Shown here piece by piece: positions 11,557-13,054 of a stretch of DNA of 13,979 nt; within the stretch, counting starts at the first letter, position 1; each line of letters opens with the position of its first letter. The stretch is from IMG/VR virus record IMGVR_UViG_3300029705_000018; one strand, given 5' to 3'. The translations under genes and the position numbers were made by a program. The notes beneath the pieces are model-generated. The model did no database searches. It was not told the DNA's origin and saw only the letters and a list, made by a program, of their open reading frames with translations. The stretch is from a virus. Lineage: Duplodnaviria; Heunggongvirae; Uroviricota; Caudoviricetes.

Positions 11557-11650
11557 AGGCACTAAAAATAACTATGTAAAAGGTTTTTTATATTTTGATC
11601 GTCTAAAATGTAAAATGTCTTTTTCTTGTTATTATTTGCTGGATGTGCCT
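11557..11650 (-). repeat. Stem-CAGCAA motif element, copy D
   Basis: AGGCAC-AT-CCAGCAA ... AT-rich interior ... GTGCCT. Confidence 0.65.
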
Positions 11651-11824
11651 ACACAAATAAATATATGATTCTCTCGTTCGTTTATATCAGTTTCTGGGCG
11701 ATGATGAGTGTCGAGAGCCTCACCACCAAGACTTAATAAAATTACTTTGAGAGAACCGAAAGAGTTTTAGTAAAAAACCATTCTTCTTTCTTGATCATTA
11801 AAATTGTATTTGATAAAATACGAT

Positions 11825-11880
11825 AGAGCTACCAGATGTAGCGATTTTGCATTATGCAAAGTTGTTTGCTGTATGGCTCT
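11825..11880 (-). repeat. Stem-CAGCAA motif element, copy C
   Basis: AGAGC-CAT-ACAGCAA ... TTTGCA-TAA-TGCAAA ... GCTCT. Confidence 0.65.
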
Positions 11881-12000
11881 CATTGAAATTTCTTAACCTT
11901 ATTTGTCGAAACCACTACGCTCAATTTCGACTTTAGTGATGCATCGAGTGGTAAGTTTTTATCCTGCCGGCCCAGTTCAACAATCTGGGATAGTTAAGAA

Positions 12001-12075
12001 TGGAGCGGGATAAGGGAATCGAACCCTCCTATCCTGCTTGGAAGGCAGGCGCACTAGCCGATGTACTAATCCCGC
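12001..12075 (-). tRNA. tRNA-Gly(TCC)
   Basis: GCGGGAT/ATCCCGC, U73-CCA, CCTGC-CT-TCC-AA-GCAGG. Confidence 0.95.
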
Positions 12076-12165
12076 ATCGAAAAGGTGGGGCACTCCGAGG
12101 AATGCCCCCGAGAAGATAGGAACTTAAAGAAAGGGGAGAAGATTTTCTTTTTTCCTTGTATTTAT

Positions 12166-12194
12166 ATTATACAAAAATTTTTTTGAAAAATCAA
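12166..12194 (-). promoter_or_regulatory. Conserved phage promoter copy
   Basis: TTGATT (12194-12189), 17 nt, TG-TATAAT (12171-12166). Confidence 0.75.
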
Positions 12195-12195
12195 C

Positions 12196-12495
12196 TCATT
12201 TGCGAATGTACCAACGACAATATTCTTGATATGCCTCATTGCGATCAGGATATGGCGCATAACGCCATTCCCATTCATGCCATCTTTTGACGAGACGCTT
12301 CCAATATTGCTCAAAAGAAGTGCCGACTGTCTCATAGTCGCAAATCAAATAATCGTGTAAAACTTTTTTATAAGCCTTACCCTTTGCGGAATGCTCGTCG
12401 ATGGGAAGACGGCGGATTTTATGGTTGGAATATCTTTTGAAATACTTGTCCTTCTTATCCCCGGATCGGGGAGTGTGCTTGTAGGACCTACTCAT
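12196..12495 (-). CDS. 99-aa basic hypothetical protein
   Basis: SD AAGGAGG; MSRSYKHTP... open frame to TGA. Confidence 0.8.
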   Translation of the reverse strand: MSRSYKHTPRSGDKKDKYFKRYSNHKIRRLPIDEHSAKGKAYKKVLHDYLICDYETVGTSFEQYWKRLVKRWHEWEWRYAPYPDRNEAYQEYCRWYIRK

Positions 12496-12574
12496 TTACT
12501 TCTAACCTCCTTTTGTTGAAGTTAGAAGACAGTAAACCTCCACATTGGACTCAGTCCTTTCTATTTAAGATTCG

Positions 12575-12661
12575 TGGTCCCGGCGACCGGACTCGAACCG
12601 GTACGGTGTCGCCACCGAGGGATTTTAAGTCCCTTGTGTCTACCAATTCCACCACGCCGGG
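12575..12661 (-). tRNA. tRNA-Leu(TAA)
   Basis: CCCGGCG/CGCCGGG, A73-CCA, AGGGA-CT-TAA-AA-TCCCT, long variable arm. Confidence 0.95.
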
Positions 12662-12670
12662 ATTTAGACA

Positions 12671-12762
12671 AGGCTCTTGATAGTTTGTAGGACTCGAACC
12701 TACTAAAAATTTTGTACAGAAAAAATTTTATTATCCAAGTTTAAGACTTGCTGTAAGAGCCT
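12671..12762 (-). repeat. Stem-CAGCAA motif element, copy B, containing a T arm and tRNA-like loops
   Basis: AGGCTCTT-ACAGCAA ... AAACTTGGATAA ... CT-GTA-CA ... GTAGG-TTCGAGT-CCTAC ... AAGAGCCT. Confidence 0.7.
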
Positions 12763-12790
12763 TTTTTATTTCCTTATCTCTTATGTATAT

Positions 12791-12819
12791 ATTATATCAT
12801 TTTTTTTTATAAAAATCAA
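12791..12819 (-). promoter_or_regulatory. Conserved phage promoter copy
   Basis: TTGATT (12819-12814), 17 nt, TG-A-TATAAT (12796-12791). Confidence 0.8.
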
Positions 12820-12831
12820 TTACGATCTCTT

Positions 12832-12906
12832 TGGCAGCGGCGGTGAGAATCGAACTCACATCCGAGGTTTTAGAGACCCCTGTCCTGACCTTTGAACGAC
12901 ACCGCA
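12832..12906 (-). tRNA. Amber-suppressor tRNA(CTA), Gln-type
   Basis: GGGGT-CT-CTA-AA-ACCTC anticodon arm (anticodon at 12873-12871); U1xU72 mismatch and G73 resemble tRNA-Gln; encoded CCA. Confidence 0.92.
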
Positions 12907-12918
12907 GTATAATAAATC

Positions 12919-13054
12919 AAGACACATCACAAAATCGTTTTACGTTGCTCTACCACTTGAGCTACCCCGCCGTGGAGACGGGGACAGGACTCGAACCTGC
13001 AGCCTACGGGTTGACAGCCTTAAATTTTGAAAAATGTATTGCTGTATGTGCCTT
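12919..13054 (-). repeat. Stem-CAGCAA motif element, copy A, enclosing the permuted tRNA-Asp
   Basis: AAGGCACAT-ACAGCAA...CAAAAT [permuted tRNA] ATTTTG-TG-ATGTGTCTT; the two flanks base-pair (9 bp + 6 bp). Confidence 0.75.
12943..13019 (-). tRNA. Circularly permuted tRNA-Asp(GTC): 3' part (13019-12973), 1-nt spacer, 5' part (12971-12943)
   Basis: GG-CT-GTC-AA-CCCGT-AGGCT-GCAGG-TTCGAGT-CCTGT-CCCCGTC-T-CCA, then C, then GGCGGGG-TA-GCTC-AAGTGGTA-GAGC-A-ACG. Joining ACG to GG restores a perfect ACGGG/CCCGT anticodon stem. Confidence 0.85.

What the first reader, a model, noticed from the sequence alone, without database searches (positions are those of the whole stretch)
11557..13054. Four-copy 'closing stem + (A/C)CAGCAA' RNA motif family with variable, often tRNA-derived cargo
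Seen on the minus strand: A AAGGCACAT-ACAGCAA...ATGTGTCTT (13054-12919), B AGGCTCTT-ACAGCAA...AAGAGCCT (12762-12671), C AGAGC-CAT-ACAGCAA...GCTCT (11880-11825), D AGGCAC-AT-CCAGCAA...GTGCCT (11650-11557). The stem sequence changes between copies while pairing is kept and the unpaired CAGCAA is invariant, the signature of an RNA-level motif. The cargo differs: a whole permuted tRNA (A), a T arm plus loop mimics (B), small hairpins (C, D). Inference: a protein-recognised scaffold or processing signal that presents tRNA parts, for example as decoys for host anticodon nucleases or as substrates for cut-and-ligate maturation. I know no named family for it.
Basis: partly seen in the sequence, partly recalled or inferred. 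Interest (0 to 1): 0.82.

Follow-up and report, generated by a model that had tools for sequence, protein, structure and literature searches.

The report
Phage Y-like RNAs with CAGCAA handle
The four repeats belong to a family of at least 13 small RNAs in this gut phage that share one stem-plus-ACAGCAA "handle" and carry tRNAs or tRNA pieces; the same handle sits beside a Ro60-shaped protein gene in very different phages, so they are most likely an undescribed phage version of the Ro60/Y-RNA particle.

Summary
The phage record has 12 matches to AGRC-N3-5-CAGC(A/G)A on the minus strand between 11.6 and 26.9 kb of the record, plus the deviant copy C. All lie in a tRNA array of about 38 genes. 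The closing stem covaries: 4 of 7 pairs change on both sides, and 0 of 500 shuffles reach that score. No Rfam family covers the handle. Only the tRNA-like cargo of three copies scores against YrlA, and below threshold.

Best reading (about 0.7): Y-RNA-like partners of a Ro60-like protein, with exchangeable tRNA-derived cargo. Binding and the decoy idea are untested. Copy C's 3' boundary was wrong. This scan found the same family earlier on other genomes. I found no published description of the RNAs.

The parts
12919..13054 (-). Copy A: handle AAGGCACAT/ATGTGTCTT plus ACAGCAA. The cargo is a permuted tRNA-like module, in the order T arm, acceptor 3' strand, T-CCA-C, acceptor 5' strand, D arm. 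A conserved G follows at 12918.
   Evidence: The cargo hits Rfam YrlA at 40.8 bits (gathering score 69), E 1e-6. R1 covariance model: 17.2 bits.
12670..12763 (-). Copy B: 9-bp handle AAGGCTCTT/AAGAGCCTT plus ACAGCAA. The cargo holds a T arm and A/U hairpins.
   Evidence: R1: 34.5 bits, E 2.8e-6.
11712..11882 (-). Copy C, boundaries revised: TGAGAGCC...GGCTCTCG with CATACAGCAA. It is a deviant member (AGAGCC in place of AGRC). Its 3' partner lies in the loop of a conserved hairpin at 11727-11700.
Evidence: R1 does not detect it at E<=1.
11557..11650 (-). Copy D: 6-bp handle AGGCAC/GTGCCT with CCAGCAA and an A/U-rich cargo. It is the last element of its transcription unit.
   Evidence: R1: 23.2 bits, E 0.0017.
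11529..11554 (-). Intrinsic-terminator-like hairpin plus T run, directly after D.
   Evidence: RNA-library contigs of three runs of one study stop at 11549-11558, which is only a weak hint.
13063..13091 (-). Sigma-70-type promoter (11 of 12 matches). It would place the transcript start 1-3 nt before handle A.
12791..12819 (-). Sigma-70-type promoter (10 of 12, extended -10) about 20 nt before handle B.
12166..12194 (-). Sigma-70-type promoter of the unit tRNA-Gly(UCC), copy C, copy D, terminator.
   Evidence: One RNA-library contig spans 11558-12196 with 3 mismatches.
12832..12906 (-). tRNA(CUA) amber suppressor, starting 12 nt after copy A. RNase P cleavage at its 5' end would set A's 3' end (inference).
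12575..12661 (-). tRNA-Leu(UAA), starting 8 nt after copy B. Same inference for B's 3' end.
4862..6373 (-). 503-aa DUF2828 + DUF7788 protein with the Ro60 fold (TROVE-like helical ring plus vWA domain with a complete MIDAS motif). It is the proposed protein partner of the handle.

Best explanation
The elements are small non-coding RNAs of a Y-RNA-like kind. Each is closed by a 7-9 bp stem formed by its own 5' and 3' ends (conserved outer pairs A-U, G-C, R-Y, C-G; free inner pairs). On the 5' side a single-stranded ACAGCAA follows the stem, and a conserved G follows the 3' strand. I infer that this 'handle' is the binding site of the phage's Ro60-like ring protein (DUF2828/DUF7788, window 4862-6373), as the 5'-strand motif of Y RNAs is for Ro60. 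The segment between the handle arms is exchangeable cargo: whole tRNAs, permuted tRNA-like modules with an encoded CCA in the acceptor loop, T arms, anticodon stem-loop look-alikes, or unrelated hairpins. The RNAs are transcribed from sigma-70-type promoters inside the tRNA array. Their 3' ends are most likely set by RNase P cutting the tRNA that starts 5-12 nt downstream. Shown here: the family exists, the stem covaries, the protein has the Ro60 fold, and gene and RNA co-occur in both directions across distant phages. Inferred: physical binding, end processing, and any downstream role (tethering or decoying host tRNA-recognising enzymes).
For: (1) Family and structure. The record has 12 minus-strand pattern matches against 1.8 expected. 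In 80 related loci there are 209 matches on the gene strand and 1 on the other. A closing stem of at least 7 bp is found in 92% of matches, against 34% in a control with random downstream sequence. Four of 7 pairs change on both sides (97 cells); 0 of 500 shuffles reach this, and slid controls score 0.02-0.15 against 0.587.
(3) Association. 68 of 80 DUF2828 loci have at least one regex handle, and the covariance model finds handles in four of the rest. In distant relatives (38-45% protein identity) the copies sit within a few hundred nt upstream of the gene. 37 of 50 viral records chosen only by an exact 15-mer handle encode the protein, and 16 of 19 near-complete ones do. About 1.4% of cultured phage records carry the gene (710 of 50,697). 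Handles occur in Felix O1, Bacillus phage Thrax1 and mycobacteriophage Faith1. T5, which has a tRNA array but no DUF2828, has none.
(4) Y-RNA likeness. Three cargos hit Rfam YrlA below threshold. The layout matches the Y-RNA description in PMC4201824: end-to-end stem, 5'-strand motif, tRNA-like module.
(5) Expression hint. Animal-gut RNA libraries hold near-identical contigs over copies C and D, while genes at 6.5-9.3 kb have about zero depth.
(6) A preprint reports that the Ro60-like gp130 of Felix-type phage Bas63 lies upstream of the tRNA genes and counters the Ppl defence (10.1101/2024.10.10.617714).
Against: No binding data exist. In this window the gene lies about 5.2 kb from the nearest copy, with a methyltransferase and a GmrSD/HNH gene in between. 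The canonical Ro-binding motifs (GNCGAA in bacteria, GGUCCGA in animals) are absent. The protein does not match Pfam TROVE or any PDB sequence profile. Co-occurrence could partly reflect shared residence in tRNA arrays of related phages. 13 of 50 handle-selected records lack the gene, though 10 of these are under 90% complete by CheckV's estimate; a share of chance 15-mer matches among the 13 is an assumption I did not compute. The RNA-library evidence comes from assembled contigs of one study and cannot show RNA ends or strand.
Confidence: 0.7

Rival explanations
1. The handle is an RNA processing or stability module that works without the Ro-like protein, for example a 5' leader that shields primary transcripts or guides RNase P, RNase E or a ligase on neighbouring tRNAs. 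Its link to DUF2828 would then be indirect, through shared tRNA-array context.
For: 8 of 13 copies end 5-12 nt before the next tRNA. Several start right at predicted transcript 5' ends. In this phage the gene is 5 kb away.
Against: In Faith1 three copies lie in tandem directly after the gene, and the fetched 7.4-kb region has no annotated tRNA. In many distant phages the copies cluster just upstream of the gene. T5's large tRNA array has no handle. Selection by handle alone recovers the gene in 16 of 19 near-complete genomes.
Confidence: 0.13
2. The elements are precursors of split or permuted tRNAs. The closing stem brings two break points together for cutting and ligation into functional tRNAs.
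For: Copy A and the copies at L001 9981-10116 and 9331-9439 carry the T arm and acceptor 3' strand with CCA ahead of the acceptor 5' strand and D arm.
Against: Only 24 of 191 elements are permuted, and 84 have no tRNA part. Whole, unpermuted tRNAs (Ile-GAU, Gly-UCC) also sit inside handles, and each has a free paralogue in the array. In the permuted ones the acceptor stem is closed by a loop through CCA, as in YrlA.
Confidence: 0.05
3. It is a DNA-level repeat, such as a protein-binding, recombination or homing site, or remnants of a mobile element.
For: The core AGRC...ACAGCAA is sequence-conserved. HNH endonuclease genes lie in these arrays.
Against: The strand bias is 209 to 1. Compensatory changes keep pairing with a partner 45-300 nt away at variable distance. 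The copies lie in transcribed intergenic positions behind promoters.
Confidence: 0.03

Closest known systems
Bacterial and phage Y RNAs (YrlA/YrlB, Yrn1; Rfam RF02553) bound by Ro60/Rsr (Chen et al. 2014, PMC4201824; phage phiLo Ro60 with Yrl1/Yrl2, PMC12135203)
   Same: Small RNAs encoded beside a ring-shaped TROVE+vWA protein gene. A stem is formed by the 5' and 3' ends. A short conserved motif lies on the 5' strand. The effector module is variable and is often a tRNA look-alike with T arm, closed acceptor stem and D arm. Several paralogues occur per genome.
   Different: The conserved motif is ACAGCAA after an AGRC stem, not GNCGAA/CGAA or GGUCCGA. The protein is the DUF2828/DUF7788 clade, with no Pfam TROVE match and 11-17% identity to solved Ro60s. 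There are up to 13 or more copies per genome, interleaved with tRNAs. The cargo range is wider: whole tRNAs, bare anticodon-loop hairpins, and non-tRNA hairpins. Rfam YrlA scores are 31.7-43.7 bits, below the gathering score of 69.
Bas63 gp130, a Ro60-like protein of a Felix O1-type coliphage (PhageMaP preprint, 10.1101/2024.10.10.617714)
   Same: The gene position is the same, next to the tRNA array, and the protein shows structural likeness to Ro60. The authors speculate that some annotated tRNA genes may be Y RNAs.
   Different: The preprint defines no RNA family, motif or structure. I did not check that gp130 is the Felix O1 ORF86 orthologue. It reports a phenotype (countering the Ppl defence) that I cannot test here.
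Permuted tRNA genes (for example in Cyanidioschyzon merolae) and tRNA-like stable RNAs of phage T5
   Same: In some cargos the tRNA 3' half precedes the 5' half. The RNAs are stable, non-decoding species inside a phage tRNA cluster.
   Different: Most elements are not permuted tRNAs. T5 has no handle and no DUF2828 gene. No evidence of circularisation or ligation was found here.

Membership tests
Y RNA (Ro60-associated ncRNA) | Encoded next to a Ro60-type protein gene | tested here: met
   A Ro60-fold gene lies on the same strand in the window. In 80 loci there are 209 handles on the gene strand and 1 opposite, often within 500 nt of the gene.
Y RNA (Ro60-associated ncRNA) | The 5' and 3' ends pair into a stem that carries the protein-binding site | tested here: met
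   The closing stem covaries. That it is the binding site is inference.
Y RNA (Ro60-associated ncRNA) | Conserved Ro-binding motif GNCGAA(N)G (bacteria) or GGUCCGA (animals) on the 5' strand | tested here: not met
   The invariant motif is CAGCAA, usually ACAGCAA. The canonical motif is as stated in PMC4201824.
Y RNA (Ro60-associated ncRNA) | Physical association with the Ro60 protein | not testable with these tools
   Needs RIP/CLIP or gel-shift assays.
Rfam YrlA (RF02553) | Score at or above the gathering threshold (69 bits) | tested here: not met
   40.8 bits (copy A), 43.7 and 31.7 bits (two copies beyond the window). Only the tRNA-like cargo aligns. No hit in Faith1.
Ro60 / TROVE protein | Helical-repeat ring plus C-terminal vWA domain with MIDAS | tested here: met
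Ro60 / TROVE protein | Match to Pfam TROVE (PF05731) | tested here: not met
   Only PF11443 (DUF2828) and PF25043 (DUF7788) match. No PF05731 match anywhere in the record. No PDB sequence-profile match.
Permuted tRNA gene | 3' half upstream of 5' half, with processing into a functional tRNA | tested here: inconclusive
   The order is seen in copy A and two other copies and in 24 of 191 elements. Processing was not testable.

The most novel reading that the evidence does not exclude
The handle is a universal adaptor that loads many different tRNA look-alikes onto one Ro60-like ring: whole tRNAs, T arms, and anticodon loops. The result would be a phage-encoded, modular decoy or sensor panel against host enzymes that cut or modify specific tRNAs (anticodon nucleases of the PrrC, RloC or PARIS type, retron or toxin nucleases). 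Each cargo would match one targeted tRNA species. Hints: anticodon-loop-like hairpins occur in 78 of 191 cargos against 23 in shuffles. Lys(UUU), which by my own knowledge is the classic anticodon-nuclease target, is the commonest. Tallied by hand from the fold and tRNA tables, the eight recognisable anticodons in this genome's cargos all have a free tRNA with the same anticodon in the array. Bas63 gp130 is reported to counter a defence system.
Probability: 0.25. Interest if true: 0.85.

Novelty: new variant of a known kind. Interest (0 to 1): 0.68.

Why it matters
Ro60/Y-RNA particles are known from animals, some bacteria and a few phages, but their roles outside RNA decay in Deinococcus are poorly understood. 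This protein clade is present in at least 710 cultured phage records (Felix O1-type, Listeria, Staphylococcus, Campylobacter, KVP40-type and mycobacterial phages). Its partner RNAs appear not to have been defined. A simple handle signature (AGRCnnnnACAGCAA ... GYCU(U/A)G) would let these RNAs be annotated. It gives a direct binding assay in tractable phages. It would also allow a test of whether phages use Ro-type rings to display tRNA mimics against tRNA-targeting defences. In addition, some tRNA calls in phage arrays lie inside handles, so they may not be decoding tRNAs.

Tried and rejected
- Rfam at gathering and at permissive E-value thresholds gave no family for the handle. It gave only sub-threshold YrlA hits on tRNA-like cargo, plus chance-level hits (SQ2397, STnc300) over copies C and D.
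- A PDB sequence-profile search with the protein alignment found nothing. Only fold comparison showed Ro60.
- The Pfam TROVE search of the whole record was empty.
A scan with 68 handles exceeded the limit. One alignment call used out-of-range coordinates.
- The supplementary tables of Chen et al. 2014 are not held, and the 2020 Annual Review is not held. I therefore could not check which phage RNAs they listed.
- The reverse complement as a control for anticodon-loop hairpins is uninformative, because hairpins remain hairpins. My first detector also counted T loops; I corrected this.
- The RNA libraries were available only as contigs, so RNA ends, strand and abundance could not be read. The depth spike at 11189-11654 may come from other organisms' conserved RNA.
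- I did not follow up the CAGCAA at window 10237, which has no AGRC stem and lies inside a larger structured region.
- I did not attempt a protein-RNA complex prediction, because the tool takes proteins only.

Full report
**The observation**

Each has a 6-9 bp stem formed by the two ends of the element, followed on the 5' side by 0-3 unpaired bases and (A/C)CAGCAA. The 7-mer alone is not above chance in the window: 5 found, 4 expected. The extended signature is.

The window is the first 14 kb of a 138.8-kb IMG/VR virus record. In that record, AGRC-N3-5-CAGC(A/G)A occurs 12 times on the minus strand, all between 11.6 and 26.9 kb. It occurs once on the plus strand. Shuffles give 1.8 on both strands together.

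With the deviant copy C, that makes 13 copies interleaved with about 38 tRNA genes. One copy, at L001 about 17747-17925, has CAGCGA instead of CAGCAA. So 'four-copy' undercounts the family.

**Structure**

I collected 220 matches to the stricter pattern AG[AG]C-N3-5-CAGCAA from this genome and 80 related loci.
- 92% have a closing stem of at least 7 bp. In a control that joins the 5' motif to random downstream sequence, 34% do.
- The outer pairs are conserved: A-U, G-C, R-Y, C-G. The next two pairs vary freely but stay paired: AU 94, UA 33, GC 31, CG 18 at one position and CG 113, GC 20, UA 20, AU 12 at the other.
- A G follows the 3' strand in 87% of elements.

On an alignment of 66 short, non-redundant elements (A2), the pair-counting tool gave these results:
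- 4 of 7 pairs change on both sides, in 97 cells.
- The covariation score is 0.587, against 0.161 in shuffles; 0 of 500 shuffles reach it.
- Slid controls score 0.02-0.15.

Those sequences were chosen for having a stem, so the percentage paired is biased. The diversity of pair types is not.

A covariance model built from A2 (R1) found only minus-strand hits in the 32 kb around the window: B at 34.5 bits, D at 23.2 and A at 17.2. It did not find C.

**Copy C**

C has AGAGCC where the family has AGRCnC. The only relative that aligns is L042. C therefore more likely spans 11882-11712. Its 3' partner sits in the loop of a conserved hairpin (11727-11700), so alternative folds are possible.

**What the cargo is**

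In this genome:
- Two handles enclose complete tRNAs called by ARAGORN and Rfam: Ile-GAU and Gly-UCC. Each has a free paralogue elsewhere in the array.
- Copy A and the copies at L001 9981-10116 and 9331-9439 hold permuted tRNA-like modules: T arm, acceptor 3' strand, N-CCA, a 1-2 nt linker (less regular in the copy at L001 9981-10116), acceptor 5' strand, D arm.
- B holds a T arm.
- Others hold anticodon-loop look-alikes, such as CUGCAAC and CUUUUAA.

Across 191 unique elements the classes are:

| Cargo class | Elements |
|---|---|
| Whole tRNA | 16 |
| Permuted module (T arm before D arm) | 24 |
| T arm plus anticodon-like hairpin | 24 |
| Anticodon-like hairpin only | 29 |
| T arm only | 14 |
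| No recognisable tRNA part | 84 |

Anticodon-loop-like hairpins occur in 78 elements, against 23 ± 3.6 in shuffles. Lys(UUU) is the commonest.

**The protein**

The ORF at 4862-6373 (minus strand, 503 aa) matches Pfam DUF2828 and DUF7788, not TROVE. The family is large: 6,480 clusters at 50% identity match at E ≤ 0.001. An AlphaFold2 model built from 103 homologues has pLDDT 94 and pTM 0.92.
- Its 13 best Foldseek matches in the PDB are all Ro60/TROVE structures.
- A complete MIDAS motif is invariant in the family.

**The link between RNA and protein**

Forward direction: in 80 viral loci fetched by the protein (38-88% identity), the handle pattern occurs 209 times on the gene's strand and once on the other, in 1.46 Mb. 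68 of the 80 loci have at least one handle. The covariance model adds handles in four of the pattern-negative loci; three of them (L078, L079, L030) have the copies within about 350 nt upstream of the gene. All 16 model hits in that search are on the gene strand. In the most distant relatives the copies cluster within a few hundred bases upstream of the gene.

Reverse direction: I took 50 viral records chosen only because they contain the exact 15-mer AGACACATACAGCAA. Of these, 37 encode the protein, and 16 of the 19 that are at least 90% complete do. For comparison, the gene is in 710 of 50,697 cultured phage records.

Named phages:
- Felix O1 has four copies in the tRNA array after ORF86.
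- Bacillus phage Thrax1 has five pattern matches and seven model hits, in the tRNA array and just upstream of its DUF2828 gene.
- Mycobacteriophage Faith1 has three tandem model hits in the 370-nt gap after gene 55, with no annotated tRNA in the fetched 7.4-kb region and no Rfam hit.
- Phage T5 has 25 tRNAs and several 'stable RNAs of unknown function' but no DUF2828 homologue and no handle. This is a single negative control.

**Transcription and ends**

Sigma-70-type promoters precede A, B and the unit tRNA-Gly, C, D. A terminator-like hairpin follows D. In 8 of 13 copies the next tRNA begins 5-12 nt after the element. RNase P cleavage there would create the 3' end; this is an inference.

In four RNA libraries from one animal-gut study, assembled contigs cover 11558-12196 with 3 mismatches. 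The protein-coding genes at 6.5-9.3 kb have about zero depth. This suggests expression. Contigs cannot show ends, strand or level.

**Comparison with the known**

The closest known kind is the Ro60/Y-RNA particle.
- Shared features: a neighbouring ring-protein gene, an end-to-end stem, a short conserved 5'-strand motif, tRNA-like effector modules and several paralogues per genome (PMC4201824; PMC12135203).
- Features not met: the canonical GNCGAA/CGAA motif, the Rfam YrlA threshold (31.7-43.7 bits against 69) and Pfam TROVE membership.

I therefore file it as working like a Y RNA, and as a new variant rather than a member of YrlA.

In the held literature I found the protein annotated as 'Ro-like RNA-binding protein' in genome announcements. 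One preprint notes that the Ro60-like gp130 of Bas63 lies by the tRNA genes, counters the Ppl defence, and that some 'tRNA genes' might be Y RNAs. I found no definition of the RNA family or its handle.

**Earlier notes of this scan**

I reached this reading before consulting the scan's notes. They show that the same 'CAGCAA handle' family was already found on many other genomes. I re-tested the core claims here: the fold, the association in both directions, Felix O1 and Faith1.

**Function**

Function remains inferred. The possibilities are tethering of host tRNA-recognising enzymes, as in the Ro60/Y-RNA/PNPase complex, or display of tRNA mimics as decoys. I put 0.7 on handle-dependent binding to the Ro-like protein and about 0.25 on the decoy-panel model.

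Noticed in passing
L001:7960-8585 (-), i.e. record 16959-17584, just beyond the window: A full-length ROOL RNA (Rfam RF03087, 323 bits) lies inside the same tRNA/handle-RNA array.
   Followed up: no
window 11298-11387 (-): A partial match to OLE RNA (RF01071, model positions 436-595, 52.9 bits against a gathering score of 50) lies just downstream of tRNA-Lys(UUU). The bin 11189-11654 has 3,500-16,000x contig depth in four gut RNA libraries, far above its neighbours. 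This could be an abundant RNA or conserved sequence from other organisms.
   Followed up: partly
window 12832-12906 (-): tRNA with anticodon CUA (amber suppressor) lies 12 nt after copy A on the same predicted transcript. The Ro-like ORF itself has no in-frame stop under table 11.
   Followed up: no
L001:14170-14242 and L001:10654-10725 (-): Two tRNAs called by ARAGORN (Ile-GAU, Gly-UCC) lie wholly inside handles and duplicate free tRNAs of the same anticodon. tRNA counts in such phages may include non-decoding mimics.
   Followed up: partly
window 11700-11727 (-): A conserved 9-bp hairpin GGTGGTGAG/CTCATCATC has copy C's likely 3' partner in its loop. It is conserved in L042, so a pseudoknot or alternative fold is possible.
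   Followed up: partly
window 6496-7605 (-) and 7695-8885 (-): A GmrSD_N+HNH nuclease-like protein and an EcoRI-type adenine methyltransferase lie between the Ro-like gene and the tRNA array. A protein with an Mtd_N (major tropism determinant) domain is at 2127-2603.
   Followed up: no
window 12196-12495 (-): A 99-aa ORF with a strong ribosome-binding site lies inside the RNA array. It has no Pfam match.
   Followed up: no
L001:15465-15500 (-): DUF3800-XI RNA motif (RF02975, 47.6 bits against a gathering score of 37.8) lies in the tRNA array.
   Followed up: no
L200 (phage T5, NC_005859 27000-45000): T5's annotated 'tRNA-like stable RNAs with unknown functions' (RNA1, RNA2, RNA3 and others) lack the CAGCAA handle, and T5 lacks DUF2828. 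They are a different kind of array-resident RNA.
   Followed up: partly
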